Source: Patescibacteria group bacterium
GTDB lineage: Bacteria; Patescibacteriota; Microgenomatia; UBA1406
Length of the DNA stretch: 64,000 nucleotides
NCBI GenBank assembly: GCA_041665145.1
Contig: JBAYJK010000002.1
Span: forward strand, 40,339 to 104,338
Direction: 5' to 3'
In this document: positions 605 through 64,000 of the stretch, piece after piece
Numbering within the stretch: position 1 is the stretch's first letter
Layout: every line of letters begins with the position of its first letter
Notes under the pieces: model-generated
Told to the model about the DNA's origin: nothing
The model's database searches: none
What the model saw: the letters and a program-made list of their open reading frames with translations, nothing else
Translations under genes and position numbers: made by a program

Positions 605-691
605 AAATTCGAATCTCGAATTTCGAAGCTCGAAACAAAAACATACTAAATAAATCCTAAATTCGAATTTCGAGTTTCGGATTTCGAATTT
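605..691. repeat. TTCGAA-type word-repeat palindromic array (intergenic)
   Basis: aaattcgaatctcgaatttcgaagctcgaaac ... aaattcgaatttcgagtttcggatttcgaattt. It shares the 19-nt string tttcgagtttcggatttcg with the array at 20952-20984. Confidence 0.8.
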
Positions 692-9568: not shown

Positions 9569-9594
9569 AGGTTATAATTATACAGGAAAAACAA

Positions 9595-9689
9595 GACTTA
9601 AGCCCAAATAATTAAGATTAAATAAAGCTTGAATATTTAAGCTTAAGGCTTTATTAAATATTTTTACTTAAGTATTTAGCCTTAATCTT
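9595..9689. repeat. CTTAAG/GCTTAA-type word-repeat array
   Basis: cttaagcccaaataattaagattaaataaagcttgaatatttaagcttaaggctttattaaat... The same word family occurs at 35095-35165. Confidence 0.7.
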
Positions 9690-9759
9690 GCCGGGGTGGT
9701 GAAACCCATGTACCACGTTGGGTACAGGGCCGTGAACCCCAGTGGTTCACGGTGGTATA
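9690..9759 (+). pseudogene. 5' fragment of tRNA-Leu (positions 1-22) split by a 48-nt structured insert in the D-loop
   Basis: gccggggtggtgaaa (15/15 identical to 10025-10039), then cccatGTACCacgttGGTACagggCCGTGAACCccagtGGTTCACGG, then tggtata (7/7 identical to the tRNA). Confidence 0.6.
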
Positions 9760-10108: not shown

Positions 10109-10123
10109 CAGAAGTAACTATCT

Positions 10124-11573: not shown

Positions 11574-11690
11574 TAGTTTCTAATTTCTAGTTTACAGTTT
11601 CTGTTAAGCTGTTTAATTCAAAATATCCGTCGGAGAAAACCCAGCAATTAGAAACTCAATGGAAACTAGTAATTATAAACTAGAAACTTA
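11574..11690. repeat. AGAAACT/AGTTTCT-type word-repeat palindromic array
   Basis: Left arm tagtttctaatttctagtttacagtttct, right arm ttagaaactcaatggaaactagtaattataaactagaaactta. It overlaps the stop codon of the MBL gene. Confidence 0.75.
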
Positions 11691-12327: not shown

Positions 12328-12405
12328 ATGGGGAGTGTACCAAAATTAAGCTAAAAGTCAAAAGATTAAAGTTGTAAGTTACGGCTTGTGCTAGAATTAC
12401 AAATA

Positions 12406-17294: not shown

Positions 17295-17335
17295 ATTCCC
17301 GCCTTCCTGCCTCGACGGCAGGCGGGCGCGGGAAT
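17295..17335. repeat. GC-rich nested palindrome (family B-like)
   Basis: attcccgc-c-ttc-cctgcc-tcgac-ggcagg-cgggc-gcgggaat. It begins with a T-loop-like gGATTCCCGCC. Confidence 0.6.
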
Positions 17336-17612
17336 GACAGCATTACAATATAGCAATACAGCAATTTCCTTCTCTTTATCGGCATAAACCGGTAATCAGT
17401 GTAGCCTGTTAAAGAACCACACATATCGCACAGCAATATCGCGCGATACATATTTGATATGTATATTATATCTAACTATAGGATGGGAAGCAAATTACGA
17501 CTGGATAAGTTGATTTGAGAAAAAAGGAGAAATATTGGGTCCCCTTTCGCAGGGCAACAAACCTAGCGGGCCGCCTATGGCGAGCCTCGCTCCAAAATTT
17601 GTTTACAAATTT

Positions 17613-18936: not shown

Positions 18937-19057
18937 GCCCGGGCTATGACCTATTGTCCCAGTCAGTTGGACTGACGAGTATCGTTGGCGCTAACCTGTT
19001 TCACGGCCCTGTTCGGAATGGGAAGGGGTGGGTCCAAGTCGCACAAATAACCAAGGC
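18937..19057 (-). rRNA. rrf: 5S ribosomal RNA (ends approximate, +/-5 nt)
   Basis: The minus strand contains ...cccaccccttcccattccgaacagggccgtgaaac...gcgccaacgatac..., matching the universal 5S loop B/C region CCCAUxCCGAAC...GUGAAAC. Helix I pairs gccttgg with cccgggc. Confidence 0.8.
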
Positions 19058-19090
19058 AAGAAGTAGTATACAGGAGACTACCTTAATTTT

Positions 19091-19214
19091 CAAGTTCTAA
19101 TTATTAGTTTCTATTGAGTTGCTAGTTGCTATTTTCTATATACGCCAAACGTTTAGAAATTAGTACCTGAAAACTGGAACTTCAATAGAAACTGTAAATT
19201 AGAAAATAGAAATT
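19091..19214. repeat. AGAAACT/AGTTTCT-type word-repeat palindromic array
   Basis: ...taattattagtttctattgag...cttcaatagaaactgtaaattagaaaatagaaatttta. The right arm is about 30 nt similar to 21731-21760. Confidence 0.75.
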
Positions 19215-20843: not shown

Positions 20844-20865
20844 ATAAAAAGTATAAACTATTATT

Positions 20866-20985
20866 TAATAAAAATTCGAAATCCGAATATCGAAAATCGA
20901 AACAAATTCAAAATACAAATTTTCCTAAAAAAAGCTTTGGTAATTCGTGCTTGTTTCGAGTTTCGGATTTCGTACTTCGAATTTA
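20866..20985. repeat. TTCGAA-type word-repeat palindromic array
   Basis: Left arm aattcgaaatccgaatatcgaaaatcgaaac, right arm gtttcgagtttcggatttcgtacttcgaatt. They are imperfect inverted copies around a loop of about 50 nt. Confidence 0.8.
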
Positions 20986-21675
20986 TTTTAGTGTCAGCAA
21001 CGACTGAAGCATTTTGTCAATGTCCCCAACCATGATCCGCTCAATATTATGAAAACTCTTGTTAATCCGGTGATCCGTCACCCGATCCTGGGGAAAATTA
21101 TACGTCCTAATTTTCTCCGACCGTTCCCCGCTTCCCGCATTTGCTGCAAATGCTGATTGAACACCTTTGCGTTTATCCGCTTCCAATTGTTGCAGTCTTC
21201 CGTTCAAAAGCGACAACGCAATCAGTCTGTTCTGTTGCTGATAACGTTCTCTGGAGCATGTGACTACAAGCCCTGTCGGTTTATGGGTAAGACGTACCGC
21301 TGTGGAAACTTTGTTAACGTTCTGACCCCCGTGACCGCCACTGCGATAAAACTGCCATTCCAATTCACTTGGGTTAATATGCACATCATGCTCGACAAGC
21401 TCGGGAGTGACCAGAACTGTGGCGGCTGAAGTATGAATCCGGCCGTAGCGTTCAGTCGTCGGAACGCGTTGGACACGGTGAACGCCCGTTTCATTTTTCA
21501 TAAGATCAAAGGCGCCGTCACCCTTTAAACGCATCAGATTCTCTTCCAACATTTCGGCTTTCCAACCTCTTTTTTGGGCATACTTCATATACATAGACAT
21601 CAGGTCATTTTGCCAAATCTTGGATTCATCGCCACCTACGCCGGGGTTTACTTCAATAAAACAAGCAGATTCCAT
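20983..21675 (-). CDS. prfA: peptide chain release factor 1-like, lacking N-terminal domain 1
   Basis: 230 aa. GVHRVQRVPTTERYGRIHTSAATV (PxT-type), SGGHGGQNVNK (GGQ), RTYNFPQDRVTDHRI. The alignment to RF1 starts at about residue 105. An in-frame TAA lies 8 codons upstream, and only 92 nt separate it from rpmE. Confidence 0.8.
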   Translation of the reverse strand: MESACFIEVNPGVGGDESKIWQNDLMSMYMKYAQKRGWKAEMLEENLMRLKGDGAFDLMKNETGVHRVQRVPTTERYGRIHTSAATVLVTPELVEHDVHINPSELEWQFYRSGGHGGQNVNKVSTAVRLTHKPTGLVVTCSRERYQQQNRLIALSLLNGRLQQLEADKRKGVQSAFAANAGSGERSEKIRTYNFPQDRVTDHRINKSFHNIERIMVGDIDKMLQSLLTLK

Positions 21676-21680
21676 AATAC

Positions 21681-21760
21681 AGTTTTTAATTATTAGTTTT
21701 TAATTTCTATTTGATGAATAACACACATTTAATAGAAACTAGAAATTAGAAAATAAAAAC
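21681..21760. repeat. AGAAACT/AGTTTCT-type word-repeat palindromic array
   Basis: ttttaattattagtttttaatttctatt ... aatagaaactagaaattagaaaataaaaac. Confidence 0.75.
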
Positions 21761-21767
21761 TTGGATT

Positions 21768-22058: not shown

Positions 22059-22099
22059 AGAGGGTAATTATAATATAAAATCAATAAGAAAACAAGGAG

Positions 22100-22239
22100 A
22101 TTAAGTTGTAAGCTGAAAGATGTAAGTCGAAATAAAGTTGAAAACATAAAGCTTTAAGTTGTATTGAGATTTCATTAAAACTTACAACTTAACTAATTAC
22201 AACTTGATTACAACTTACAACTTAAACCTTACGACTTAT
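22100..22239. repeat. TTACAAC/AAGTTGTAA-type word-repeat palindromic array
   Basis: taagttgtaagctgaaagatgtaagtcgaaataaagttg ... cttacaacttaaaccttacgactta. Confidence 0.8.
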
Positions 22240-23382
22240 CTATTTGGCTTCCCCCAACACTACGTCCTTCTGCAGTGTCTGCTTGTCTCTCCAAATTTGT
22301 AGCGCAAGGCGGTCTCCTACCTTTTTAGTTCTAACGATATTGGAAATATCATCCTCTTTACCTATTTGTACGCCATCTATTTTTACAATAACATCACCTT
22401 TTTGCAAACCAGCAGAATCTGCAGAACTTCCCTGCACAACCTCGAGTATGTATGCACCTGCCGGGAGATCATTCAGTACTGCGCTTTCTTTATCCAGCAC
22501 CTTATAACGAATACCAAGGAATGGACGGGATATTTTGCCTCCCGAACTCTTATAGTTATTAATAAGCTCTTTAATAACATTTACCGGTATGGCGAACCCG
22601 ATATTCTGACCTTCTTGGGACACGGCAGTATTAATGCCGATTACCTGCCCTGCCGAACTGACAAGAGGCCCGCCGGAGTTTCCCGGGCTAATCGCGGCAT
22701 CTGTTTGAATAACATTATCAAGCCGCTCCACCGAACCCTCAAACGGAGAGCCGGCAGTTATTCCTCTTCCTAAACCGGAGACAATACCTTGGGTAACCGT
22801 GTTTCGAAATTCCCCCAGCGGCGTTCCGAATGCGATTGCCAGTTGACCGAGCTGCAATTTATCGGAGTCACCCAGTGGCAAAGGAAGCAACCCACGTGCA
22901 TCAACTTTAATGATTGCCAAGTCATTCAAAGGATCCCTGAACACCTGCACTGCCGGATACGTTTTGTTTTCTTGCGTAATAACTTTGTACGTCGCTGTCG
23001 TGTCGCTTACTACATGCTTGTTGGTAATAATCAATCCGTCCTCAGAAACAATGAATCCGCTGCCGATATTCTGTTCGATTTTCCTTGATTCACCCGGAAT
23101 TGTATTAAACGGATTTGTCGGATTAAACGGGTCAAATTGGATTGAATCCGGGTTTTGTTGTGTCGTAGAAATCGAGACGGTAACGACGGAAGGCTGTGCG
23201 TTTTTGACTACCTTAATAATTACGGATTCTTCAGAAACGACTACGACTTTTTCCGGCGTCGTGGAAGTTGTAGCGGTCTGAAAAGAAAGTTTTTTCAGTT
23301 CCGCAAACTTAATATATCCGGCTTTTACTCCGAAGACGGTCAACAGAGCTATTAATACAACAAGAATGATAATCTTTTTCAT
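22240..23382 (-). CDS. HtrA/DegP-family trypsin-like serine protease with a PDZ domain
   Basis: N-terminal TM, GSGFIVSEDGLIITNKHVV, DLAIIKV, GNSGGPL, and C-terminal PDZ (AGLQKGDVIVKIDG). Confidence 0.9.
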   Translation of the reverse strand: MKKIIILVVLIALLTVFGVKAGYIKFAELKKLSFQTATTSTTPEKVVVVSEESVIIKVVKNAQPSVVTVSISTTQQNPDSIQFDPFNPTNPFNTIPGESRKIEQNIGSGFIVSEDGLIITNKHVVSDTTATYKVITQENKTYPAVQVFRDPLNDLAIIKVDARGLLPLPLGDSDKLQLGQLAIAFGTPLGEFRNTVTQGIVSGLGRGITAGSPFEGSVERLDNVIQTDAAISPGNSGGPLVSSAGQVIGINTAVSQEGQNIGFAIPVNVIKELINNYKSSGGKISRPFLGIRYKVLDKESAVLNDLPAGAYILEVVQGSSADSAGLQKGDVIVKIDGVQIGKEDDISNIVRTKKVGDRLALQIWRDKQTLQKDVVLGEAK

Positions 23383-29055: not shown

Positions 29056-29125
29056 TTTGTTTGTTTTACTTAATAATTTGTACTTACAACTTTATTACAA
29101 CTTACACCTTACGACTTACAACTTC

Positions 29126-31401: not shown

Positions 31402-32229
31402 TTAGAACTTTTTGAGGATCGGTATCTTTTTTTCAAAATCATTCGGGAAAAACCACAGCTGAGTCTTTGTTACCAGTTCTTTAGTCTGATGACGATATAT
31501 AATCGCAAGTTGCAGTTTCATGAGCACGGCTTCTACAACGAGACTCAGCAAATTTAAAATTTGGAATTTTGAATTTGAAATTGATTTTGAATTTGAAATT
31601 TTAAATTTTAAATTGACATTTGGGAACAACCTCTCCACCCACCTATTCGCCTCCAAGAATTTCCGGTACGTCCCCTCTTTATCCACCACCGACATAACCT
31701 GTAATACTTCATGCCCTACATATATATTCTGCTTATTCTTCGAAATCGATAAGCTGTCTTCTGTAAAAAATAAGTTGAAGCATAGTTTATCTTTGAATTG
31801 CTGATCATTTCGTCCCCTTCTCTTTCCCATAAGAATTGATATAACGGTCAAAAAGAATCGCGCGGTCCATAACCTGTTTTTCGAAGTTATAACAAAGAGG
31901 TCGATATCATCCTTCTCTTCCGCGTTCATTGCCGCCACACTACCCGAAATACCGATAAACTTCACCCACGGCAGCGTACCTAAGAACTTGATTATGGTTG
32001 TCATTTTGCTAATTTTTTCTTTTGATATTTTCTCTCGTTTTATCGACTCGGCTATCCACCTTCTATTATTTATGAGAGCAACTCGATCATTTTTCACTAT
32101 TATTTGTTTGCCCATTGTCAACTGCCGCAGTTGCCGTGGGGTTGCCAGGAACTTCCACACCTCATAAATAGTGGGAGCGTAGTGAAAAAACGAATAATAT
32201 TCTAAAACTTGCAGAATTTCCTTATCCAT
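31402..32229 (-). CDS. nucleotidyltransferase (Pol-beta/MNT superfamily) domain protein
   Basis: GISGSVAAMNAEEKDDIDLFVIT fits the GS...D.D pattern. Start set to the ATG at 32229 (8-nt overlap with the cysS end). It contains an in-frame word-repeat block at 31545-31615. Confidence 0.5.
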   Translation of the reverse strand: MDKEILQVLEYYSFFHYAPTIYEVWKFLATPRQLRQLTMGKQIIVKNDRVALINNRRWIAESIKREKISKEKISKMTTIIKFLGTLPWVKFIGISGSVAAMNAEEKDDIDLFVITSKNRLWTARFFLTVISILMGKRRGRNDQQFKDKLCFNLFFTEDSLSISKNKQNIYVGHEVLQVMSVVDKEGTYRKFLEANRWVERLFPNVNLKFKISNSKSISNSKFQILNLLSLVVEAVLMKLQLAIIYRHQTKELVTKTQLWFFPNDFEKKIPILKKF

Positions 32230-35094: not shown

Positions 35095-35165
35095 TTTAAG
35101 TATAAATATTTAAGACTTAATATTTAATGAAGCTTTAAGCTTAAATTTCAAGCTTTATTAAGGCT
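35095..35165. repeat. CTTAAG/GCTTAA-type word-repeat array
   Basis: tttaagtataaatatttaagacttaatatttaatgaagctttaagcttaaatttcaagctttattaaggc. Confidence 0.7.
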
Positions 35166-35189
35166 TTTGGCTTCTCGCTTTGTCCTTGA

Positions 35190-40075: not shown

Positions 40076-40100
40076 AGAGTCGAGTACGTGAGCGGGATAC

Positions 40101-40153
40101 GGCCTGCCCGCCATCGCTACGCTCAGGCGTTAGCGGGCGGGGAATCGAACCCT
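40101..40153 (-). repeat. GC-rich palindromic element, family B, embedded in a tRNA 3'-fragment-like sequence
   Basis: Minus strand reads gggttcgattcc, then ccgcccgctaacgcctgagcgtagcgatggcgggcagg, then ccgtatcccgctca. The core aacgccNNagcgtagcgaNggcg is shared with 10141-10164. Confidence 0.6.
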
Positions 40154-40156
40154 TTG

Positions 40157-42456: not shown

Positions 42457-42488
42457 AACTAGTATTTTACACGTTTACAAGCTGTGAA

Positions 42489-42572
42489 GTTACTTGTTTC
42501 TGCCGACTTGAAGATTCTACTACAACACGATTAATCGTGAATCTTCACGGAGTGCCAAAGAAACAATGTAAC
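42489..42572. promoter_or_regulatory. 84-nt three-tier nested palindrome between prs and recR
   Basis: Outer gttacttgtttct/agaaacaatgtaac (one bulge), middle tgaagattc/gaatcttca, apical perfect palindrome acgattaatcgt. Confidence 0.5.
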
Positions 42573-42589
42573 GAGCAGCTTAGTAACGA

Positions 42590-43519
42590 CTAAACCTTGA
42601 GTACTTCGGATATATCGATCACCTCAATCTTAGAGTACGGCTTCAGGTCTTCCACAGTTTTTTCGATCGTATTTGTGGTAAAAAAACGCGTAAGAGTCGA
42701 TACTTGAATCTTTTCGGGAATACCGGGACCAAAGTCAGGGTGCACCACCGCCGCATACACTTCTTTTGCCCCTTTAGACAATGCAAGCTCTGATGCATGG
42801 ATAATAGTACCGCCGCTTGTTGCAATATCATCGACGAAAATCACCGTTTTTCCCTGCACATCACCATACAGCTCCATAGCTTTCGAGTCATGAATATTGG
42901 CCAGATTCCGTTTCTTTTCAACGGTTACTAAATCATAACCTTTCAGATTTTTGTAGAAAGCTTCTGCAAATTTTCGCGCCCGTTCTATTCCCCCCTGGTC
43001 CGGTGACGCGATAACAACTGAAGACTCTGTGTAGGCAGTAATCCCAAGATTTTCGTAAATCCGCGATGCGAGGTATGGCAATACACTGATACTTCTAAAG
43101 GGTATAGAAAATACTCCCGCTGTTCCTTCGTCATGCAAATCAACAACAATCACCTTATTGACTTTCAGACTTTCCAATAAACGGATAACAACGTGTGCCG
43201 AGACACATTCTCCCGGAAGATGCTGAATATTTTGCCGTGCATACCCAAAATACGGGATGACACACGTGATTTCTCCTGCGCCTTCACGTTTAAGCGCATC
43301 CACAGTAAACGCAAGTTCCATAACATGCATGTCTGTCGGATTGGAAGTAGACAAGACGATAAAACAGTCTACGTCATGAACATTTTGCTCTACAGTTACC
43401 TTGACTTCGGAATTTGCAAACCTCACCACCTTATGCGACCCAATAGCAAAATTGTTGAGACCAGCAAACCGTGCCGCAAGCTCTGGAGAAGATGATCCAG
43501 AAAAAACCAGTGGTTGCAT
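42590..43519 (-). CDS. prs: ribose-phosphate diphosphokinase
   Basis: FSGSSSPELA..., VVDLHD, and the PRPP loop VDDIATSGGT. Start at the ATG at 43519 (MQPLVF). Confidence 0.9.
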   Translation of the reverse strand: MQPLVFSGSSSPELAARFAGLNNFAIGSHKVVRFANSEVKVTVEQNVHDVDCFIVLSTSNPTDMHVMELAFTVDALKREGAGEITCVIPYFGYARQNIQHLPGECVSAHVVIRLLESLKVNKVIVVDLHDEGTAGVFSIPFRSISVLPYLASRIYENLGITAYTESSVVIASPDQGGIERARKFAEAFYKNLKGYDLVTVEKKRNLANIHDSKAMELYGDVQGKTVIFVDDIATSGGTIIHASELALSKGAKEVYAAVVHPDFGPGIPEKIQVSTLTRFFTTNTIEKTVEDLKPYSKIEVIDISEVLKV

Positions 43520-43628
43520 GATTATGATTTTAGTAGAATACACAAAAGATAGCAAGATATATTGTTAAACTTGCCTCGCCATTAGGAGGGTTGCGATATT
43601 GCTAAACTGTTAAATTGTTAAACAATAC

Positions 43629-44195
43629 ATGGTCAAACGAAAAATAAGAGTTGGTTTTGATTTTGACGGAGTCCTCTTTTATAACCCGGCTCGCGTCATA
43701 CGCCCGTTCATCTATTTTTTTAAGCGACATGTATTGGGTATAAAAAAAACTAAATTCTACGTTCCCAAAAACGGTTTTTCGCAAACAATAGCGGCTTTGC
43801 TACACAAATCAAGTTTGATGCCCAATAAGGGATTTGATGATTTTCTCAGACTCGTGAACCACCCCGATTATGAAGTGTATATAATCACAGCCCGCTTAAG
43901 CTTTTTGAAAAATGATCTGGACAAGCTTCTGAAAAAATTTGACGTCACGAACATTAAAAAAATCATACAGAATATCGGTGACGAACAACCTCACACGTTT
44001 AAAGAACGCCTGATCAAAGAGCTTAAATTGGATTATTACGTTGAAGACAATTGGGATATTGTGAAACACCTGACGGAAAAAACAAATGCGACGGTCATTT
44101 GGATTCATAACCTGGTTGATTTGTTATTTATCAAACATCCTCACCACGGAGGAAACCTGAGGGAAGCGATCGATATTATCAAAAAGAAGTTGTAA
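43629..44195 (+). CDS. HAD-superfamily hydrolase-like protein
   Basis: N-terminal motif I VGFDFDGVL; 188 aa. Confidence 0.55.
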   Translation: MVKRKIRVGFDFDGVLFYNPARVIRPFIYFFKRHVLGIKKTKFYVPKNGFSQTIAALLHKSSLMPNKGFDDFLRLVNHPDYEVYIITARLSFLKNDLDKLLKKFDVTNIKKIIQNIGDEQPHTFKERLIKELKLDYYVEDNWDIVKHLTEKTNATVIWIHNLVDLLFIKHPHHGGNLREAIDIIKKKL

Positions 44196-44302
44196 GTCGT
44201 AAGGCGTAAGTTGTAATCAAGTTGCAACTGATGAAGTTGCAAGACTTACGGCTTTCAACTTTAGACTTTACTTCAACTTTCAGCTTACACCTTACGACTA
44301 AG
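44187..44302. repeat. TTACAAC/AAGTTGTAA-type word-repeat palindromic array
   Basis: agtcgtaaggcgtaag (44197-44212) pairs with cttacaccttacgact (44284-44299). The left arm is near-identical to 55639-55680. Confidence 0.8.
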
Positions 44303-44304: not shown

Positions 44305-44565
44305 TTATCCCTGGTCCTGCATTTGAAGAAGTTTTCGTGCGGCAATTTCCTGTGTTTTTTTGATAGCCTCGGCGAATGCTTCTGCAATACGGTTCTCTAA
44401 AACTCCGTCTACTTCAATCGATCGGACTTTCTGATCTCCGCTCATGACAATCTTAACGCCGTTACGTTCAATAGTAACTTCTTCCTGTGCGAGTGCATGT
44501 TGCATTGCCTGTGCTTTTTGCTGAAAATCTTTCAAATCACCCATTGCCTTAAAGGGATTAAACAT
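44305..44565 (-). CDS. ybaB: YbaB/EbfC family nucleoid-associated protein
   Basis: MFNPFKAMGDLKDFQQKAQAMQHALAQEEVTIERNGVKIVMSGDQKVRSIEVD. Start at the ATG at 44565. Confidence 0.85.
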   Translation of the reverse strand: MFNPFKAMGDLKDFQQKAQAMQHALAQEEVTIERNGVKIVMSGDQKVRSIEVDGVLENRIAEAFAEAIKKTQEIAARKLLQMQDQG

Positions 44566-46961: not shown

Positions 46962-48650
46962 TTATTTGATGAACCACACCAAATCATGCAAAGTCCACCT
47001 ACCGTTTTTATCCCAGTCAACCGGCCATAAAGTTTTCATTTTCACTGAATTTATTTTTTGCCCTGCAACCACAAATTCCTGTCTCGGCAGATTAAATTGC
47101 TTTAATAAAACAATGCGATATTTCTCACCCACCGCAAGATTCTTGACTTTTTTGAGAAGAATCTCCCCATTATCGCCGGTTATCCCTGATTTTTTGTAAA
47201 CCAAGTGTTCTTGCGGATCGTATATCTCAACCTGAAAACCTGTTTTGCTTTGCAGCACGCCCAACCCCAATGAATAGTGAATTGCGATATCAATGTTTGG
47301 AATTACTTTCATTTGCCATTCCCATGTGCTTTGTGCTTTGCCGTTGTGCAGTAGGGCTATCTGCATCGGATACGATCCGATTGTTTCAGGGGTCTGAATC
47401 GTAAATGAAACATCCTTTTGGACGCCGGGTTCCGTTTCCAAAATTACCGGGAAAAAGTACTTGAATTCATAATCAGATACAAGCGCAAACTCATCGCCCT
47501 GTTCGATATCCCAAATAGTTTGCCCGGTATTTCTGATTTTAAGCAACATATTGAATCGTGAATCCGCACCGAGTTGAGTTGGAAGAAAACTCGTTATTTC
47601 GAATTTAGATACACGCTCCGGTTCTCCGCTGACTTTCGGAATATCTGCAACGGTTTCAAAAGATTTATAGTACTCGGAGCTTTCAAACTTCCGTAGCGAG
47701 AAACCCAGAAACGGATGACCCTGATAATTAAGAATAAACGGAGTAACCACTACAACGCGCTTATCTGGTAACCAAACCGATTCGTATGCTATTCTATAAT
47801 TTTCTGCGACTCTCTCTTCATCCATACTGCCCTTTCTATCCCACCCGGTTTCAGTTATAAATACGGGAAGTTTTTTGGAGACCCCTAATTCTGAAAGATA
47901 CGAAAGCTCCCATTCATAACCCCGGATTGTCCCTTTTCCCTCGTCGTAGGGACTACCGACAAATCCCGGATTCGGATAACTGTGGGAGGACCACCCGTCA
48001 ACGAGAGCAAACAGGTCCTTTTCGTTGTCTGCAAGATGGCGTGACATGCGGGAAAGAAAACTCCGTTCATCAAAATATTGAGGAGGTGCAAGCGGTGCCG
48101 CCTGATCAAAACCCGCAAGCATAATATAGAAATCCGGGTGCGCTTTTTTTAGTGCAGATGCGAATGAGTAAGCGACATCGGCATATTCTTCAGGATTTGC
48201 TTCTCCGCCCCATTCCGTCGCATGGTTCGGCTCGTTAAATAAAATAACATATCTGTTTTTGACTACCCAGTTGAGCTTATTGAGAAATTCTGCCCACCCA
48301 GCCGCTTGTTCCATAGTCGGTTTCCGCCAATTTCCCCCATCAGGTTCAGTTGCAATACGGATGATGGGGATGAGACGCAGCTTGCGCATCTTGTTAAAAA
48401 CATCCTGCCATTTTCCGATTTCCCTGTCGTTTTGTTGAATGGTGACGGTAACATACCCCCAATTACCGCCTGACGAGTTCACAAGCTTCGCGGCATCAGT
48501 TATATCCTGCTCATCGGCTGTCGCGATATGAATGCCGAATTTATTATTAGAAACTGCTGTTGGGTCGGAAATAGCATATGCTTGTAGACTGTAGACTGTA
48601 GCCAGGAGGCTGTAAAAAATAAGCACAAAAAACAATGGGTAAATTCTCAT
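46962..48650 (-). CDS. secreted glycoside-hydrolase-like protein (TIM-barrel, GH5/GH39-like NEP motif) with C-terminal beta-rich domains
   Basis: Signal peptide MRIYPLFFVLIFYSLLATVYSLQAYA. YVILFNEPNHATEWGG. Confidence 0.55.
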   Translation of the reverse strand: MRIYPLFFVLIFYSLLATVYSLQAYAISDPTAVSNNKFGIHIATADEQDITDAAKLVNSSGGNWGYVTVTIQQNDREIGKWQDVFNKMRKLRLIPIIRIATEPDGGNWRKPTMEQAAGWAEFLNKLNWVVKNRYVILFNEPNHATEWGGEANPEEYADVAYSFASALKKAHPDFYIMLAGFDQAAPLAPPQYFDERSFLSRMSRHLADNEKDLFALVDGWSSHSYPNPGFVGSPYDEGKGTIRGYEWELSYLSELGVSKKLPVFITETGWDRKGSMDEERVAENYRIAYESVWLPDKRVVVVTPFILNYQGHPFLGFSLRKFESSEYYKSFETVADIPKVSGEPERVSKFEITSFLPTQLGADSRFNMLLKIRNTGQTIWDIEQGDEFALVSDYEFKYFFPVILETEPGVQKDVSFTIQTPETIGSYPMQIALLHNGKAQSTWEWQMKVIPNIDIAIHYSLGLGVLQSKTGFQVEIYDPQEHLVYKKSGITGDNGEILLKKVKNLAVGEKYRIVLLKQFNLPRQEFVVAGQKINSVKMKTLWPVDWDKNGRWTLHDLVWFIK

Positions 48651-48851
48651 GGAGGTATTGTACCGAAATCTAGCGAAATTGTTAGATTGTTAAATTGCTA
48701 TATTGCCAAATACCGGGTTGCGAAGGCAATTGTTTTCGGCGACTTGGGAGGGAGCCGTTCTCGGGAGGGGTCCCACGGAGCGTAGAAAACAAGTTGACGA
48801 GCAACACAGTAAAAATACTACATATGATCGAGAAGCGTGTAGAATACGAAT

Positions 48852-55630: not shown

Positions 55631-55750
55631 AAAATTAAGTTGTAAGGCGTAAGTTGCAAGTTGTAATCAAGCTGTAACTGATTAAGTTGTATATGATTAC
55701 AACTTTCAGCTTTGTACTTTATTACAACTTATACCTTACAGCTTCAGACT
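55631..55750. repeat. TTACAAC/AAGTTGTAA-type word-repeat palindromic array
   Basis: taagttgtaaggcgtaagttgcaagttgtaatcaagctgtaactg ... attacaacttataccttacagctt. Confidence 0.8.
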
Positions 55751-55769
55751 TTATTATATAATATCCGTT

Positions 55770-56738
55770 ATGAAATTGTTGATAACAGGTGGCGCGGGTT
55801 TTATCGGAGTTAACACTGCGCTTCACTTTCTCAACCGCGCTTCAAGCATTACAATTTTTGATAACTTCTTCAGACCGACTTCATCCGTCAATGCGCAATT
55901 TCTGAAAAAGAAGTCATCCAAAATCAAAATCGTCGAGGGCGATGTCCGGGACGAAAAAAAGATCGCCGATGAAGTCAAGCAGGCAGACGCAATTATTCAC
56001 CTTGCAGGTCAGGTAGCCGTTACAACTTCGCTCACCGATCCCGCAACTGATTTTTCCATTAACGTACTCGGCTCATTCAATGTACTTGAGAGTGCACGAA
56101 AATATAATCCGCATGCTACTCTTCTCTACAGTTCTACAAACAAGGTGTATGGTGACCTTTCCAAAGTTGACATCGACAAGCATACCGGGATTGACGAAAA
56201 CACACCGATAGATTTATATAGCCCCTACGGCTGTTCAAAAGGTTCTGCCGATCTTTATTTTTTGGATTACGCGCGTTCGTTCGGAATGAACACGATAGTT
56301 TTCAGACAATCCTGTATTTACGGGCCACACCAATATGGTGTCGAAGACCAAGGTTGGCTGGCTTTTTTTGCTTTGCAATTTTTACGGCATAAACCGATAA
56401 CCGTTTATGGTACCGGCGAACAAGTGCGGGATCTCCTGTTTGTCGAGGATCTGGCGGAAGGCTACGAAAAAGCCCTACAACAAGGACCAAAAATTGCAGG
56501 TCAGGTTTTTAATTTCGGCGGCGGGCCTCAAAATTCTGTGAGTATTAATGAAGCGATTAATCATCTTGCTCAGATTTTCGGGTACACCGTCCCGCTTACT
56601 TACGACAAAAAACGCCTTGGAGATCAGGACTATTTTGTTGCAGACACCCGGAAAGCTGAACGTACATTAGGATGGAAAGCAAAAACCGGTTATCAGTCCG
56701 GTCTGAAGACCATGATTGATTGGTGCAAACAACATTGA
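55770..56738 (+). CDS. NAD-dependent sugar epimerase/dehydratase (SDR family)
   Basis: LITGGAGFIGVN, YSPYGCSKG (YxxxK). Confidence 0.85.
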   Translation: MKLLITGGAGFIGVNTALHFLNRASSITIFDNFFRPTSSVNAQFLKKKSSKIKIVEGDVRDEKKIADEVKQADAIIHLAGQVAVTTSLTDPATDFSINVLGSFNVLESARKYNPHATLLYSSTNKVYGDLSKVDIDKHTGIDENTPIDLYSPYGCSKGSADLYFLDYARSFGMNTIVFRQSCIYGPHQYGVEDQGWLAFFALQFLRHKPITVYGTGEQVRDLLFVEDLAEGYEKALQQGPKIAGQVFNFGGGPQNSVSINEAINHLAQIFGYTVPLTYDKKRLGDQDYFVADTRKAERTLGWKAKTGYQSGLKTMIDWCKQH

Positions 56739-56762
56739 GTATTGAAAATTGAGAACTGAAAA

Positions 56763-57896
56763 TTGAAAATTCTATTCACCTCCACCTATTTTCACCCATA
56801 TCTTTCTGGTCTTACCGACTATCCGCTGAAAATCGGCACGTATCTTTCAAAAAACCACGAGGTGTCTGTATTGACTTTTAAACACACCACTTCCCTCCCA
56901 ACAAACGAGCAATATAGCAATTTAGCAATTGCGCGTTGTACTCCCCATTTTCGTATCTCAAAGGGTTTAATTAACATTTTCTACCCTCTCATTTCCTTTC
57001 TTCATGTTCTAAAAAATGACGTCGTATTCGTAAACCTCCCGCAATTTGAGGGCTTCTTCCCTGCGTTCTGGGGAAAAATCATGGGTAAGAAAACGTATGC
57101 TATTTATCATTGTGAACTGTTTTTTGAAAAAGGGGTTCTGTCGAAACTGATAGAATACGTGGCAAATTTTTCCGCATATCTCACCTGTATGTTGGCGACA
57201 AAAGTAATTGCGTACACAGAAGATTATGCGACCAACAGCCCCATTTTGAGGCATTTTCTACACAAGGTTATATATACGCTCCCCCCTGTCGAGCGAATTT
57301 CTCCTGATCCCGCTTACTCCAAACTGTTAACTAATAACTATAAACTATCCACTCCAATAATCGGTTTCTCGGGTCGTGTTTCAAAAGAAAAAGGGATTAC
57401 ATACCTTCTTGAAGCACTTGCGTTACTCCAAGAGAAGTATCCTTCGATTACGTTGTTATGTATTGGGCCGTTCGGTAAAGATGTCGTCGGTGAGGAACCG
57501 TATTTTGAAGAGTTACAGCATCAAATTCAAAGAAAGAAGCTTACCGTGCGGTTTCTGGGATCACGCACACACGAAGAACTCGCCTCTTTTTATAAAGCGG
57601 TTGACGTTATTGTACTGCCGTCCACAAACAAAACCGAAGCCTTTGGAATGGTGCAAGTTGAAGCTTTGCTCGCCGGAACACCCGTAGTTGCATCGGATCT
57701 GCCGGGGGTGCGCGTACCGATCAAACTATCCGGAATGGGGCTCATATGTAAACTAAAAGATGTCCGCGATCTTGCAACCACAATGGAGACGGTCATAGAA
57801 AACAGAAAAAAATATATTCAATTACCTAAAAAAATTGCTACAATCTTTGACATCAAAAAAACTTATCAATTTTACGATCAACTATTGTCTTCGTGA
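56763..57896 (+). CDS. glycosyltransferase family 4 (TTG start)
   Basis: MKILFTSTYFHPY..., C-terminal EAFGMVQVEALLAGTPVVASD (E-x7-E region). Confidence 0.8.
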   Translation: MKILFTSTYFHPYLSGLTDYPLKIGTYLSKNHEVSVLTFKHTTSLPTNEQYSNLAIARCTPHFRISKGLINIFYPLISFLHVLKNDVVFVNLPQFEGFFPAFWGKIMGKKTYAIYHCELFFEKGVLSKLIEYVANFSAYLTCMLATKVIAYTEDYATNSPILRHFLHKVIYTLPPVERISPDPAYSKLLTNNYKLSTPIIGFSGRVSKEKGITYLLEALALLQEKYPSITLLCIGPFGKDVVGEEPYFEELQHQIQRKKLTVRFLGSRTHEELASFYKAVDVIVLPSTNKTEAFGMVQVEALLAGTPVVASDLPGVRVPIKLSGMGLICKLKDVRDLATTMETVIENRKKYIQLPKKIATIFDIKKTYQFYDQLLSS

Positions 57897-57935
57897 CAAT
57901 TTAGCCATATAGCAATTTAACAAATAAGCATTATT

Positions 57936-58718: not shown

Positions 58719-59751
58719 GTAACGGAAGACTGTCGATCGGCGCATATTTTAGTTGCTGATACGCTTCAAGAAGCAACTTCATCTGATGAGTAATCTCGCC
58801 TAACTTATATATACTTATCTCTTGGGCACCATTCGATTCTGAATTCTCCAGTGATACACCCTTTTTAACCAATAAGCCATCATGTAGTAATTTGAGGAGT
58901 TCCGACAGTAGCCATTCAGAAGAACCGCCTGACCTATCAAAAGCATATATCCATGAAATCGCAGCCGAGCTGTCGTGTTTCAGCAATAAATGAAGAAGCT
59001 CGATTGGTTTTTTTTCGCTATTATTTGACAAAGCAAGACGAACTTTTTCCAAGGATAAATCCGTCATACGGACAACAAGCTCTAAAAGCTTTGCTCCATC
59101 CCGAAATGACCCGCCAGCCTTATCGGCAATAAGTTCAAGTACCGGACGCTTAAGAACGAGTTTCTCTCCCACCACCACTCGTTCAAGCGAGTGCACAAGC
59201 TCGTCCGGCGTTGCTTTGTTAAAAACAACATTGATGCAGCGTGAAACGACCGTTTCCGGAAGTTTATTTGGTTCTGTTGTTGCCAGAATAAATACAACAA
59301 AAGCCGGCGGTTCTTCAAGCGTTTTCAGCAATGCATTGAAGGCCTCCTTGGTAAGCATGTGAACCTCGTCGATTATGTACACCTTAAACTTCCCTTTGAC
59401 CGGAGAGTACCCCACTCCGTCTCTCAAAGCACGGATATCATCTATTCCCCGATTTGATGCGGCGTCCAATTCGTTAACGTCAAAAAAACGGTTTTTGGCA
59501 AAATCCATACAATTATCACAGACTCCACAGGGCTCCGGACTTGTACCCTTGCCCCCAAACATATTATTCTGACAATTCAGCAGTTTAGCAATGATCCGAG
59601 CAGTTGAAGTCTTTCCCGTTCCTTTCGGGCCAACCAGTAGGAAAGCGTGTGGAATGTCGTTTTTTTTAGAAAAAACGTCAAGAAGCAGCTGGCGACGTTC
59701 TTTATGATCGATATCGGCTATTTTTTGCGGGCGGTATTTTAGATAGTACAT
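58681..59751 (-). CDS. dnaX: DNA polymerase III gamma/tau subunit (short form)
   Basis: YRPQKIADI, GPKGTGKTS, CGVCDNC, IIDEVHMLT, LKTLEEPP, VSRC. Confidence 0.9.
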   Translation of the reverse strand: MYYLKYRPQKIADIDHKERRQLLLDVFSKKNDIPHAFLLVGPKGTGKTSTARIIAKLLNCQNNMFGGKGTSPEPCGVCDNCMDFAKNRFFDVNELDAASNRGIDDIRALRDGVGYSPVKGKFKVYIIDEVHMLTKEAFNALLKTLEEPPAFVVFILATTEPNKLPETVVSRCINVVFNKATPDELVHSLERVVVGEKLVLKRPVLELIADKAGGSFRDGAKLLELVVRMTDLSLEKVRLALSNNSEKKPIELLHLLLKHDSSAAISWIYAFDRSGGSSEWLLSELLKLLHDGLLVKKGVSLENSESNGAQEISIYKLGEITHQMKLLLEAYQQLKYAPIDSLPLLIVAATIEASQE

Positions 59752-59754
59752 GTT

Positions 59755-59880
59755 AGATGGTTAGTTTTCAGTTCTTAATTCTCAGTTTTTAAAGAGTTCT
59801 CAATTCTTAAGTACTAAACAGCAATTGTTTGAGAACCAATACTTAAGAACTCTTTGAGAACTGCGAACTGAGAACTAAGA
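59755..59880. repeat. GAGAACT/AGTTCTTAAG-type word-repeat palindromic array
   Basis: tagttttcagttcttaattctcag...cttaagaactctttgagaactgcgaactgagaactaagaacta. The end is shared with 63970-64000. Confidence 0.8.
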
Positions 59881-60267
59881 ACTATGTTTAACAAACTCCT
59901 GCGCCAAAATATTTATCGCATGATCCAGAAATTGCATGATGACTTTATTGATTTCTTTATCCTGCTCTGCAGCGTACAGTGTGACTTGCGGGTAGCACAC
60001 CACAATCTCTCCGAGCAATACACCTTCATTGTCACTTTGCGGAAACGTTTGTTCGTGGGCAATATACGGAAACGTCAAAACCGGATGTTCCTGGTCTTCT
60101 TTAAGATATTCCTTTGCGAGAGCCCGCGCTTTACGACTCCCCACAAAAACAATACTCAAAACACCGCTCGGCAGTTCGCGGTTTGTCCATAAATCAGACA
60201 CATACCGACGAACCATCTTCCGGTCGACGCGGTATCGAGAATCACTCGAGCAATATATTGTCAGCAT
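59875..60267 (-). CDS. YbeY-like rRNA maturation factor homolog lacking the H-x3-H-x5-H zinc motif
   Basis: 130 aa. LSIVFVGSRKARALAKEYLKEDQEHPVLTFPY and LGEIVVCYPQV follow the YbeY pattern, but the expected HGxLHLxGxDH region reads FLDHAINILAQ. Confidence 0.45.
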   Translation of the reverse strand: MLTIYCSSDSRYRVDRKMVRRYVSDLWTNRELPSGVLSIVFVGSRKARALAKEYLKEDQEHPVLTFPYIAHEQTFPQSDNEGVLLGEIVVCYPQVTLYAAEQDKEINKVIMQFLDHAINILAQEFVKHSS

Positions 60268-60461: not shown

Positions 60462-60499
60462 TAACAGACATCTCCAAACTAAAAAAATAATTGTTAAAT

Positions 60500-60580
60500 T
60501 GTTGAATTGTCATATTGCTAAATCTAGTCACTGATAACCAGCACAATATAGCAATTTAACAATTTAGCAAGAACATCCAT
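60500..60580. repeat. TAGCAAT/TTGCTAA-type word-repeat palindromic array
   Basis: ttgttaaattgttgaattgtcatattgctaaat ... atatagcaatttaacaatttagcaa. Related words occur at 3075-3100, 17340-17375, 43590-43620, 48670-48712 and 57897-57925. Confidence 0.75.
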
Positions 60581-63195: not shown

Positions 63196-63285
63196 TTAAT
63201 TTGCAATTCTTAATTTTTAATTTTTATTCAATTAACAATTTCCTAATTTATATTGAAAACTGAAAATTGAAAACTGAAAATTTAT

Positions 63286-63867
63286 TTATACGGTCATTAC
63301 TTCCTGTTCTTTACGACCCTTCATTTCATCGATCTTATCAGTATACTCTTTCGCGACTTTATCTATATCGGTTTCCGCTCGTCTTTTTTCATCTTCGGAC
63401 AGTTCCTTAGCTTCAAACGTAGTTTTCACTTTTTTCCGGATCTCGTCCCGCTCATGCCGCAGTGTTTCACGACCTTCTTCGGCAAATTGGGTAACCAATT
63501 TGACGTACTTCTCGCGCTGCTCTTGTGAAAGTGGAGGAGTTTTTGCGCGGATTTGAGTTCCTGAAACACTGACACTGAAACCGAGACTTGAATCCCTGAT
63601 CGCTTTCTCAATGTCCTGCAGTGTCGACTGGTCAAACGGACTGACAAGAATTTCCTGAGGTCCGGAAGTTGTTATGGTTGCGAGCTCGATCACTTTTAGC
63701 GTCGCCTGACCCCCATATGTTGTAACCGAGATGTTCTCGACTAACGCGGGAGAAGCACGGCCGGTACGAATGGACGCCAGATTATCCCGTGTATAGGTTA
63801 AGACGTCCTCGAGTGATGACCTGAATTCCTGTAAAGATATCATGGAAATATTATACATAATTGTCAA
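63286..63867 (-). CDS. frr: ribosome recycling factor
   Basis: IRTGRASPALVENI, IRAKTPPLSQEQREK, RHERDEIRKK. The start may be the ATG at 63843. Confidence 0.9.
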   Translation of the reverse strand: MTIMYNISMISLQEFRSSLEDVLTYTRDNLASIRTGRASPALVENISVTTYGGQATLKVIELATITTSGPQEILVSPFDQSTLQDIEKAIRDSSLGFSVSVSGTQIRAKTPPLSQEQREKYVKLVTQFAEEGRETLRHERDEIRKKVKTTFEAKELSEDEKRRAETDIDKVAKEYTDKIDEMKGRKEQEVMTV

Positions 63868-64000
63868 AAACTGTATAGTTCTTATTTCTTAGTTCTAAGT
63901 TCTCAAAGAGTTCTTAAGTCACAGTTCTTAAACAATAGTTGTTTAGTACTTAAGAACTTATCAGTTTCTTTAAGAACTGAGAAATGAGAACTAAGAACTC
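63868..64000. repeat. GAGAACT/AGTTCTTAAG-type word-repeat palindromic array (runs to the window edge)
   Basis: tagttcttatttcttagttctaagttctcaaagagttcttaag...cttaagaacttatcagtttctttaagaactgagaaatgagaactaagaactc. Confidence 0.8.

What the first reader, a model, noticed from the sequence alone, without database searches (positions are those of the whole stretch)
44187..44302. Dispersed families of 'word-repeat' palindromic arrays occupy almost every intergenic spacer
Spacers are built from degenerate tandem 7-9-nt words arranged as two inverted arms that can form hairpins of about 100 nt. Families recur at distant loci with long near-identical stretches.
- TTACAAC/AAGTTGTAA family: 22100-22239, 29075-29125, 44187-44302 and 55631-55750. 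gtaaggcgtaagttg...taatcaag is shared by the 44.2-kb and 55.6-kb copies.
- AGAAACT family: 11574-11690, 19091-19214 and 21681-21760. aatagaaactNNaaattagaaaata is shared.
- TTCGAA family: 605-691 and 20866-20985, sharing a 19-nt identity.
- GAGAACT/TTAAGAAC family: 59755-59880 and 63868-64000.
- TAGCAAT family: 3075-3100, 17340-17375, 43590-43620, 48670-48712, 57897-57925 and 60500-60580.
- CTTAAG family: 9595-9689 and 35095-35165.
- TGAAAAYTGA family: 56739-56765 and 63240-63285.
The arrays often overlap stop codons, for example at 11680, 28044 and 44195. They behave like a REP/BIME-type system of terminators or mobile palindromes, but with an unusual modular 'word' construction.
Basis: seen in the sequence. 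Interest (0 to 1): 0.6.

Follow-up and report, generated by a model that had tools for sequence, protein, structure and literature searches.

The report
Heptamer-built palindromic repeats in CPR spacers
A tiny-genome candidate-phyla-radiation bacterium related to Roizmanbacteria carries about one 90-150-nt AT-rich palindrome per 4.6 kb, each arm a run of 7-nt words; they form dispersed families that close relatives lack at the same sites, so they look like recently spread selfish foldback DNA and not like dedicated terminators.

Summary
In 82.5 kb (the window plus 18 kb of flanks), 18 of 88 spacers hold a long imperfect palindrome. Six more hold one-armed arrays.

- **Word length:** the period is 7 nt in 16 of 17 hairpins.
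- **Families:** Copies align end to end at 80-90% identity, loops included, far above shuffled controls.
- **Source:** an uncultured Patescibacteria genome related to Roizmanbacteria, assembled identically from four datasets.
- **Relatives:** genomes at 59-81% protein identity have spacers of 2-43 nt, or no word hairpin, at six orthologous sites. One relative carries a family-G copy at a different locus.
- **Context:** occupancy is the same in co-directional (19%), convergent (20%) and divergent (29%) spacers.
- **RNA-level tests:** there is no sense-strand stability bias, 0-1 compensatory pairs, and a U-tract in only 2 of 17 cases.

Best reading: a lineage-specific superfamily of non-autonomous foldback repeats, with arms that evolve by heptamer slippage. 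How they move is unknown, and no transposase lies nearby. A terminator or RNA-stabiliser role is not excluded but is unsupported. This is a new variant of known kinds (REP/MITE-like palindromes crossed with STRR-like heptamer repeats).

The parts
44187..44302 (.). Family A (GTAAGTT/AACTTAC) foldback element, the finding itself. It lies between the convergent genes 43629-44195 (+) and ybaB 44305-44565 (-). Its first word supplies the last codons and the TAA stop of the upstream ORF.
55633..55755 (.). Family A element in the divergent spacer between tRNA-Pro (-) and the epimerase gene (+). It is 80% identical to the 44.2-kb copy over 112 nt.
22093..22246 (.). Family A element between the HtrA stop and the conserved L31 promoter. 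It is absent from relatives L006 (43-nt spacer) and L007.
29056..29125 (.). Family A solo arm (direct heptamer array only) between SSB and S18.
12345..12387 (.). Short family A fragment (AAAGTTGTAAGTTACGG) upstream of gene 12388.
11575..11688 (.). Family B (AGTTTCT/AGAAACT) element between a metallo-beta-lactamase-fold gene and dnaB. It overlaps the stop codon at 11680.
19085..19214 (.). Family B element between RNase J and the lone 5S rRNA. Relative L006 has a family G element at this site instead.
21676..21767 (.). Family B element filling the L31-to-release-factor spacer, which is 7 nt in L006.
605..691 (.). Family C (TCGAAAT) element between two outward-facing -10 boxes of divergent leaderless genes.
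20866..20990 (.). Family C element between the release factor and RNase J. There is no word hairpin at this site in L006 or L007.
59751..59893 (.). Family D (AGTTCTN/NAGAACT) element between ybeY and holB-like genes, which are 2 nt apart in L016.
63877..63999 (.). Family D element between the polysaccharide deacetylase gene and RRF. It is 87% identical to the 59.7-kb copy, loop included. The spacer is 41 nt in L015.
60491..60570 (.). Family E (AATTGTTA/TAACAATT, period 8) hairpin upstream of S21.
43590..43623 (+). Family E direct array immediately upstream of the start of gene 43629.
48670..48712 (-). Family E direct array upstream of gene 46962-48650. The word TAACAA sits at the -35 position.
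57897..57935 (+). Family E direct array upstream of gene 57936.
9592..9690 (.). Family F (CTTAAGC/TAAGCTT) element in a divergent spacer.
35095..35185 (.). Family F element between co-directional genes. It is 80% identical to a copy 3.1 kb upstream of the window.
63197..63288 (.). Family G (TTTTCAR/YTGAAAA) element between RRF and the M50 protease (15 nt in L015, 12 nt in L016). It is homologous to the L006 element downstream of RNase J.
56734..56771 (+). Family G direct array overlapping the start of gene 56763.
31551..31614 (.). Palindromic heptamer array (AATTTGA-type words, family H-like) lying in frame in the hypervariable linker of a 275-aa nucleotidyltransferase-like ORF.

Best explanation
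These are a lineage-specific superfamily of short, non-coding interspersed repeats. Each is a 90-150-nt AT-rich foldback palindrome whose two arms are degenerate tandem arrays of one 7-nt word.

The families are A (GTAAGTT), B (AGAAACT), C (TCGAAAT), D (AAGAACT), E (TAACAAT), F (CTTAAGC), G (TGAAAAY) and H (TCAAAAT).

**Shown**
- They are dispersed homologous copies.
- They were gained in this lineage at sites where relatives have tiny spacers.
- They land in any unconstrained DNA: after stop codons, between divergent promoters, between convergent genes, and in variable protein linkers.
- After dispersal they decay without compensatory changes, and they change length in 7-nt steps.

**Inferred**
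- They behave as selfish or neutral DNA-level elements that are copied to new sites.
- The most plausible vehicle is a single-stranded hairpin intermediate, as for REP/REPIN-RAYT or IS200/IS605 elements, or replication template-switching.
- Replication slippage and palindrome-correcting template switches then keep each arm repetitive and the two arms complementary.
- Any terminator, RNA-stabilising or promoter (-35/UP-like) effect is a by-product or a local co-option, not the reason they exist.
For: 1. Inverted repeats are far above chance: 20 score above the shuffled maximum of 32.
2. Family structure is real. More than 20 pairs score >=40 against a shuffled maximum of 32. Copies align end to end at 80-90% identity, including loops and irregular word order.
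3. Relatives lack word hairpins at six orthologous sites. The spacer sizes, relative versus window:
   - HtrA-L31: 43 vs 181 nt
   - L31-RF: 7 vs 92 nt
   - RF-RNase J: 153 nt without a word hairpin in L006 and 27 nt in L007, vs 139 nt
   - RRF-M50: 15 or 12 vs 90 nt
   - deacetylase-RRF: 41 vs 137 nt
   - YbeY-HolB: 2 vs 123 nt
   At HtrA-L31 the element sits exactly between the stop codon and a promoter block conserved in both genomes.
4. The L006 element downstream of RNase J is homologous to the window's family G copy downstream of RRF (score 82). It is not homologous to the window's element at the orthologous site.
5. Occupancy is independent of transcriptional context: 11 of 59 co-directional, 3 of 15 convergent and 4 of 14 divergent spacers.
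6. There is no sense-strand stability bias (5 vs 6 hairpins). Compensatory pairs number 0 of 42 and 1 of 38, and many pairs are broken.
7. The period is 7 nt. Nine of 22 indels >=5 nt between copies are 7, 14 or 21 nt long.
8. Heptamer arrays also occur in frame in variable protein linkers.
9. Rare hairpins using the same words occur in more distant relatives, so the families are older than this genome's expansion.
Against: - No transposase, RAYT or other dedicated recombinase lies in the 82.5 kb examined. The only recombinase is a XerC-like integrase at 706-1635.
- No target-site duplication or conserved target was seen in the one alignable junction.
- Most copies are only 80-90% identical, so there is no proof of ongoing movement. 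The exception is the 93% pair just outside the window.
- Four assemblies of the strain are identical, so no insertion polymorphism within the population was observed.
- Heptamer arrays in coding linkers and one-armed arrays show that part of the pattern can arise in place, without any transposition.
- Many elements start 0-8 nt after a stop codon. This genome region has no canonical terminators in its spacers, so a co-opted 3'-end function remains possible.
Confidence: 0.6

Rival explanations
1. The hairpins are functional RNA elements. They could be unconventional, U-tract-independent terminators, or 3'-end stabilising or processing hairpins, selected downstream of genes in a genome that lacks canonical intrinsic terminators. 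On this view they work like REP sequences that protect upstream mRNA in E. coli operons.
For: - Many elements begin 0-8 nt after, or overlap, the upstream stop codon.
- Three sit between convergent genes, including the finding itself.
- Canonical terminator-like sites are not enriched and none lies in a spacer (16 found vs 20 expected).
- Most promoters are leaderless and abut the start codon, so a hairpin just upstream of the -10 box would insulate transcription units.
Against: - The elements are as common in divergent spacers, where no transcript ends (4 of 14, against 11 of 59 co-directional).
- Only 2 of 17 have a U-tract.
- There is no sense-strand stability or G-U bias.
- Divergence between copies breaks pairs without compensation.
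- The elements are absent from relatives at the same gene junctions.
- One lies between L31 and the release-factor gene. These are 7 nt apart in a relative, and there is no leaderless-type promoter after the hairpin.
Confidence: 0.17
2. There is no mobility at all. A genome-wide mutational bias (heptamer slippage plus template-switch palindrome formation) builds each hairpin in place, and families merely reflect a few favoured heptamers.
For: - Heptamer arrays occur in frame in the variable linkers of RadA and of a 275-aa ORF.
- One-armed arrays exist.
- Indels between copies come in 7-nt steps.
- The same words recur in distant relatives and even in cyanobacteria. An example is TTTTGAA/TTCAAAA in Nostoc (bioRxiv 10.1101/2022.06.06.494920).
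Against: - Copies share non-periodic detail. Examples are conserved word order, irregular junctions such as GTAATCAAG, and loop sequences such as TTCTTAAGTACTAAACA...ATTGTTT, at 80-93% identity over 110-170 nt.
- A family G copy in L006 matches a window copy at another locus from its first base.
- Elements appear as discrete blocks next to conserved flanks.
Confidence: 0.13
3. The arrays are binding sites for a heptamer-reading nucleic-acid-binding protein, such as a cold-shock, S1-like or nucleoid protein. They would form a regulatory or chromatin system, as proposed for the TAACTGA and STRR heptamer repeats.
For: - The period is a strict 7 nt across all families.
- One-armed arrays of families E and G lie in sense orientation just upstream of start codons or at -35 positions.
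- This resembles the repeats in Beggiatoaceae and Nostoc (PMC4679880; 10.1101/2022.06.06.494920).
Against: - At least eight unrelated words share no common core, so no single sequence-specific reader fits.
- Most mRNAs appear leaderless, so arrays upstream of the -10 box are not in 5' UTRs.
- Relatives lack the arrays at the same genes.
Confidence: 0.1

Closest known systems
REP/BIME and REPIN elements of Proteobacteria, mobilised by RAYT transposases
   Same: Both are extragenic, palindromic, dispersed in families and often lie just after stop codons. Neither leaves a target-site duplication, and both are non-autonomous.
   Different: REPs are ~20-40-nt GC-rich imperfect palindromes with a conserved GTAG head, usually one or two sequence types per genome, linked to a RAYT gene. 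The elements here are 90-150 nt and 17-39% GC, with arms made of tandem heptamers. There are at least eight word families and no RAYT in 82.5 kb.
Bacterial MITEs and palindromic elements: Correia, RUP, BOX, Nezha and the Rickettsia palindromic elements
   Same: They are about 100-150 nt, fold into a long hairpin, are lineage-specific expansions, and tolerate insertion at gene ends. A palindromic array also lies in frame within a protein linker, as with RPEs.
   Different: MITEs have defined terminal inverted repeats, a target-site duplication and a non-repetitive interior. Here the whole element is a palindrome of 7-nt units, and no TSD was seen in the one alignable junction.
Heptamer tandem repeats: cyanobacterial STRR-type repeats, TAACTGA repeats of Beggiatoaceae/Cyanobacteria/Bacteroidetes (PMC4679880), and TTTTGAA/TTCAAAA repeats of Nostoc (10.1101/2022.06.06.494920)
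   Same: They share the 7-nt period, an intergenic location, several word types and arrays abutting start codons. Some words are the same (TTCAAAA). Their function is unknown, and indels come in unit steps.
   Different: Known heptamer repeats are direct arrays. MacGregor found 169 direct sets and a single inverted one. Here the typical form is two inverted arrays that make a ~100-nt hairpin, and whole elements recur as dispersed copies. The host is a CPR bacterium.
Eukaryotic Foldback (FB) transposons (comparison from my own knowledge, not tested here)
   Same: They have long inverted arms built from short tandem repeats, so the arms can pair in several registers.
   Different: FB elements are kilobase-sized and eukaryotic, and are sometimes associated with coding sequences. 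There is no evidence of any evolutionary relationship.
TIGR arrays of CPR bacteria and phages (PMC12045711)
   Same: Both are repetitive non-coding arrays found in Patescibacteria, and some variants have palindromic parts.
   Different: TIGR units are 36 nt with two spacers, lie in one array next to a Nop-domain tas gene, and are processed into guide RNAs. Here the period is 7 nt, there are about 20 dispersed sites, and no tas gene is present.

Membership tests
REP/BIME (REPIN) | Short (~20-40 nt) GC-rich imperfect palindrome with a conserved 5' tetranucleotide (GTAG-like) | tested here: not met
   The elements are 80-154 nt and 17-39% GC, and the families share no head motif.
REP/BIME (REPIN) | A cognate RAYT (IS200/IS605-type Y1 transposase) in the genome, often flanked by REPs | tested here: inconclusive
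   None was found among the roughly 85 genes in 82.5 kb. The rest of the genome (the source contig alone is 480 kb) could not be searched.
REP/BIME (REPIN) | Extragenic, dispersed, many related copies | tested here: met
   There are 18 spacer elements in eight families.
MITE | Terminal inverted repeats bounding a non-palindromic interior, plus a target-site duplication | tested here: not met
   The whole element is palindromic. The filled-versus-empty comparison at HtrA-L31 shows no duplication. Only one junction could be aligned.
MITE | Presence/absence at orthologous sites, and the same family at different loci in related genomes | tested here: met
Heptamer tandem repeats (STRR / TAACTGA type) | Tandem repetition of a 7-nt unit in non-coding DNA | tested here: met
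   Lag-7 autocorrelation is 0.55 against 0.33 for shuffled arms. The best lag is 7 in 16 of 17 hairpins, and TRF periods are 7 or 14.
Heptamer tandem repeats (STRR / TAACTGA type) | Direct (head-to-tail) arrays, typically one orientation upstream of start codons | tested here: inconclusive
   This holds for six one-armed arrays, but the 18 main elements are paired inverted arrays.
Intrinsic (Rho-independent) terminator | GC-rich stem followed by a U-tract, located downstream of a gene on the sense strand | tested here: not met
   Stems are AT-rich. Two of 17 have >=5 T in the 8 nt after the stem. Four of 18 are in divergent spacers. There is no sense-strand bias.
Structured RNA family (Rfam) | A match at gathering score, or covariation supporting the helix | tested here: not met
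   There were no Rfam hits at gathering score. Only sub-threshold generic-hairpin hits appeared: MIR7807 at 34.9 vs 90 bits and WsnRNA46 at 29.2 vs 65.3 bits. Compensatory pairs number 0-1.
TIGR array | 36-nt units with edge and loop repeats and two spacers, adjacent to a tas (Nop-domain) gene | tested here: not met
   The period is 7 nt. No Nop-domain gene appears in the gene tables. The family definition is taken from PMC12045711.

The most novel reading that the evidence does not exclude
These may be a previously undescribed class of prokaryotic foldback element that spreads and renews itself without a dedicated transposase. Replication slippage would extend arms in 7-nt steps, hairpin-templated switching would keep the arms complementary, and ectopic template switches would seed new sites. 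The host would then use them as sequence-independent insulators between leaderless transcription units. If so, the 7-nt rule would link them mechanistically to the long-unexplained STRR/TAACTGA heptamer repeats of cyanobacteria, Beggiatoaceae and Bacteroidetes.
Probability: 0.15. Interest if true: 0.8.

Novelty: new variant of a known kind. Interest (0 to 1): 0.5.

Why it matters
CPR/Patescibacteria genomes are regarded as streamlined, with very short spacers. Here about a quarter of all intergenic DNA is recently acquired palindromic repeat, so selfish or self-generating DNA can expand even in such genomes.

The elements combine two phenomena usually treated separately: interspersed palindromes (REP/MITE) and heptamer tandem repeats (STRR/TAACTGA). 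They therefore offer a compact natural system for asking why 7 nt is the favoured unit and how such arrays arise.

There are practical consequences too:
- The elements overlap stop codons and sit in variable protein linkers, which affects gene calling.
- They can confuse terminator and small-RNA prediction in metagenome-assembled genomes.
- They could serve as strain-level markers.

Tried and rejected
1. **Cyanobacterial origin.** I suspected STRR repeats in a Nostocales genome. The HIP1 motif GCGATCGC occurs once against 0.8 expected, and protein relatives are Roizmanbacteria/Patescibacteria.
2. **MFE-based detection.** A sliding-window MFE scan and an unbranched-stem count did not discriminate, because coding DNA gives many weak stems. 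I replaced them with a gapped inverted-repeat DP scan with Markov controls.
3. **Self-BLAST for inverted repeats** returned almost nothing.
4. **Simple lag autocorrelation over the whole window** missed the degenerate arrays. It worked once restricted to the arms.
5. **Metagenome scan** with the family A pattern AAGTTGTAATCAAGYTGNAAYT gave two chance hits that are not hairpins. Two viral-contig scans with family D and composite-element cores gave nothing.
6. **Microdiversity between assemblies.** All four assemblies are 100% identical, so no insertion or copy-number polymorphism could be scored.
7. **Pfam scan of unannotated neighbouring ORFs** for a mobilising enzyme gave no hits.
8. **TIGR arrays** were considered and rejected on unit length and the absence of a tas gene.
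9. **The in-frame array at 31551-31614 as an RPE-like insertion.** Homologues have an equally long hypervariable linker there, so an insertion cannot be shown.
10. **The outer stem of the 597-699 palindrome.** It turned out to be the two outward -10 boxes of divergent leaderless genes, so the element core is 605-691.

Full report
**Source and gene map**

The window is part of a 480-kb metagenome contig (ENA ERZ27249449, k141_479163). Other assemblies match it at 100% identity over every overlapping stretch: one from JGI/NCBI and two from Logan. The sequence, hairpins included, is therefore not an assembly artefact. It also means no within-population variation was available.

The closest genomes by RNase J and M50 protease are Candidatus Roizmanbacteria and unnamed Patescibacteria, at 59-81% identity.

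I joined the flanks to the window to obtain 82.5 kb. Coordinates below 1 or above 64000 refer to these flanks. I assembled a map of 89 genes and RNAs from the precomputed gene calls.

**The observation**

- The finding at 44187-44302 is a ~105-nt imperfect hairpin between the convergent genes 43629-44195 (+) and ybaB (-). Folding z-scores are -4.9 on the + strand and -3.9 on the - strand.
- A gapped inverted-repeat scan found 24 non-overlapping inverted repeats scoring >=29. Twenty of them score above the maximum of 32 seen in a Markov-shuffled control.
- Most of the 24 are AT-rich (17-39% GC) palindromes of 80-154 nt. Two composite copies outside the window reach 174-202 nt.
- Within the arms, base identity at lag 7 is 0.55 and at lag 14 is 0.49, against about 0.33 for shuffled arms. 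Lag 7 is the best lag in both arms of 15 hairpins and in one arm of a sixteenth; the seventeenth has period 8. Tandem Repeats Finder agrees.
- The words are therefore heptamers, not 7-9-mers.

**Families**

- All-against-all local alignment of 26 elements and arrays gives more than 20 pairs scoring >=40. Shuffled versions reach at most 32.
An eighth family (TCAAAAT) appears in the downstream flank.
- The similarity goes beyond shared words. Copies align end to end at 80-93% identity over 64-173 nt, including loops and irregular junctions. Examples are the D pair at 59751/63877 and the A copies at 22093/44195/55633.
- Of the 22 indels >=5 nt between copies, nine are 7, 14 or 21 nt long. This points to unit-wise slippage after the copies separated.

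**Where the elements sit**

| Spacer type | With full hairpin | Total |
|---|---|---|
| Co-directional | 11 | 59 |
| Convergent | 3 | 15 |
| Divergent | 4 | 14 |
| All | 18 | 88 |

Six more spacers carry one-armed arrays. Hairpins account for 2190 of 9393 spacer nucleotides. "Almost every spacer" is therefore an overstatement. More importantly, occupancy does not depend on whether a transcript ends in the spacer.

**Comparison with relatives**

| Junction | Relative(s) | Window |
|---|---|---|
| HtrA-L31 | 43 nt (L006), 51 nt (L007) | 181 nt |
| L31-RF | 7 nt (L006), 28 nt (L007) | 92 nt |
| RF-RNase J | 153 nt without a word hairpin (L006), 27 nt (L007) | 139 nt |
| RRF-M50 | 15 nt (L015), 12 nt (L016) | 90 nt |
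| deacetylase-RRF | 41 nt (L015) | 137 nt |
| YbeY-HolB | 2 nt (L016) | 123 nt |

- Locus L006 (RNase J 81% identical) is syntenic with window 19-30 kb. L015 (74%) and L016 (59%) are syntenic with the RRF-M50-S21-YbeY-HolB region.
- At HtrA-L31 the element lies exactly between the stop codon and a promoter block (CCTTGTTTTCT...TATATTATAAT) that is conserved in both genomes. No target duplication is visible.
- Gain in the window's lineage is the parsimonious reading.
- At the RNase J-5S junction both genomes have a hairpin. The L006 element is homologous from its first base to the window's family G copy downstream of RRF (score 82). It is not homologous to the family B copy at the orthologous site. 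The same family thus occupies different loci in different genomes.
- More distant relatives carry rare heptamer hairpins or arrays with the same words: L004 at 9865-9969 (GGTAAGG), and the 920-nt spacer of L007 (TCGAAAT, TTAGCAAT). L016 has none in 21 kb.
- The families are therefore old, and the high density is specific to this genome.

**Tests of an RNA-level function**

- Among the 11 hairpins with a known sense strand, the sense RNA is the more stable in five and the antisense in six.
- RNAalifold on family A finds 0 of 42 pairs with compensatory change and 14 pairs broken in one copy. Family D has 1 of 38.
- Only 2 of 17 stem ends facing an upstream gene are followed by a T-tract.
- Canonical terminator-like sites are not enriched (16 found vs 20 expected), and none lies in a spacer.
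- Rfam gives no hit at gathering score. Relaxed thresholds give only generic long-hairpin hits far below threshold.
- One element separates L31 from the release-factor gene, with no leaderless-type promoter after it. It cannot be a strong terminator.

Together these results argue against dedicated terminators or conserved structured RNAs. They do not exclude weak or co-opted effects.

**Heptamers outside the hairpins**

- RadA carries (CACGAGT)x3 as an insertion of about 11-13 residues that two orthologues lack. It also carries (AAGTCGA)x3 in its variable N-terminal linker.
- A palindromic heptamer array lies in frame in the hypervariable linker of a 275-aa ORF.
- One-armed arrays of families E and G abut start codons or sit at -35 positions.

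This shows a genome-wide tendency to build heptamer arrays in any unconstrained DNA. It supports a slippage component and keeps a purely in-place origin alive as a minority rival.

**Interpretation**

The best-supported reading is a lineage-specific superfamily of non-autonomous foldback interspersed repeats.

- *Shown:* dispersed homologous copies; gain relative to relatives; indifference to transcriptional context; DNA-level symmetry; decay without compensation; length change in 7-nt steps.
- *Inferred:* copying to new sites through a hairpin or single-strand intermediate, or through template switching, with slippage and palindrome correction maintaining the architecture.
- *Missing:* a mobilising enzyme. 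No transposase lies in the 82.5 kb. There is also no target-site signature and no population polymorphism.

**Comparison with known systems**

- The elements work most like REP/REPIN or MITE-type palindromes, but they fail the defining features of both: size, composition and head motif for REP, and TIR plus TSD for MITEs.
- They share the 7-nt unit, and even some words, with the heptamer repeats of cyanobacteria, Beggiatoaceae and Bacteroidetes (PMC4679880; bioRxiv 10.1101/2022.06.06.494920). Those are direct arrays.
- TIGR arrays of CPR bacteria (PMC12045711) are unrelated in unit size and genomic context.
- Four full-text literature searches found no description of such elements in Patescibacteria. 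That is absence of evidence within the searched library only.
- I therefore rate the finding as a new variant of known kinds, of moderate interest.

Noticed in passing
window-wide; e.g. 693-705, 20844-20856, 22059-22075, 55757-55769: Transcripts look predominantly leaderless. A -10-like hexamer (TAnAAT or TATAnT) ends 5-8 nt before the start codon in 26 of 83 genes. Only 9 of 83 have a Shine-Dalgarno-like motif.
   Followed up: partly
27397-27421 and 27840-27871 (radA, minus strand): RadA contains in-frame heptamer triplets. (CACGAGT)x3 lies within an insertion of about 11-13 residues (ASRISGHESRVTS) that the L006 and L007 orthologues lack. (AAGTCGA)x3 lies in the variable N-terminal linker.
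   Followed up: yes
31551-31614: A 64-nt palindromic heptamer array lies in frame inside a 275-aa nucleotidyltransferase-like ORF and encodes NLKFKISNSKSISNSKFQILN. It falls in a linker that is hypervariable in length and sequence among homologues.
   Followed up: yes
18938-19055 (-): A lone 5S rRNA gene lies directly downstream of RNase J, with no 23S or 16S nearby. The arrangement is conserved in relative L006.
   Followed up: partly
2319-3319: A 1-kb stretch has no called gene. It contains several nested inverted repeats (2845-3018, 3037-3114) and a TAGCAAT array. Rfam gives nothing above noise.
   Followed up: partly
17290-17340; also 10110-10218 and 40076-40155: GC-rich hairpins lie beside or near tRNA genes. 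The one at 17290-17340 has the frame GGATTCCCG...CGGGAATGAC, which recurs inside the composite elements downstream of the window. This may be a second, GC-rich repeat family.
   Followed up: partly
downstream flank, window numbering 66978-67179 and 67851-68024 (L011 reversed): Two composite palindromes of about 180-200 nt are 93% identical. Their outer arms are family H heptamers and their cores are GC-rich hairpins. They flank a 214-aa ORF with no Pfam match, in direct orientation, like a small composite unit.
   Followed up: partly
L007 4753-5672: A 920-nt spacer in a 66%-identity relative is packed with heptamer arrays using the same words (TCGAAAT, TTAGCAAT/TTAACAAT, CTCCTAA). The complementary TCGAAAT arms are about 640 nt apart, which suggests nested insertions.
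   Followed up: no
L004 9865-9969: A G-rich heptamer hairpin (GGGTAAG/CTTACCC) lies upstream of RNase J in a MAG labelled Gammaproteobacteria. Its RNase J is 67% identical to this Patescibacteria gene, so the label is probably wrong.
   Followed up: no
44193-44195, 11680-11682, 63286-63288: Elements overlap or directly abut stop codons. At 44195 the last codons and the TAA stop of the 188-aa ORF are formed by the element's first word, AAGTTGTAAG.
   Followed up: partly
42466-42594: A 129-nt hairpin between the PRPP synthetase gene and recR has no heptamer periodicity (39% GC). It is a different kind of structure in the same type of position.
   Followed up: no
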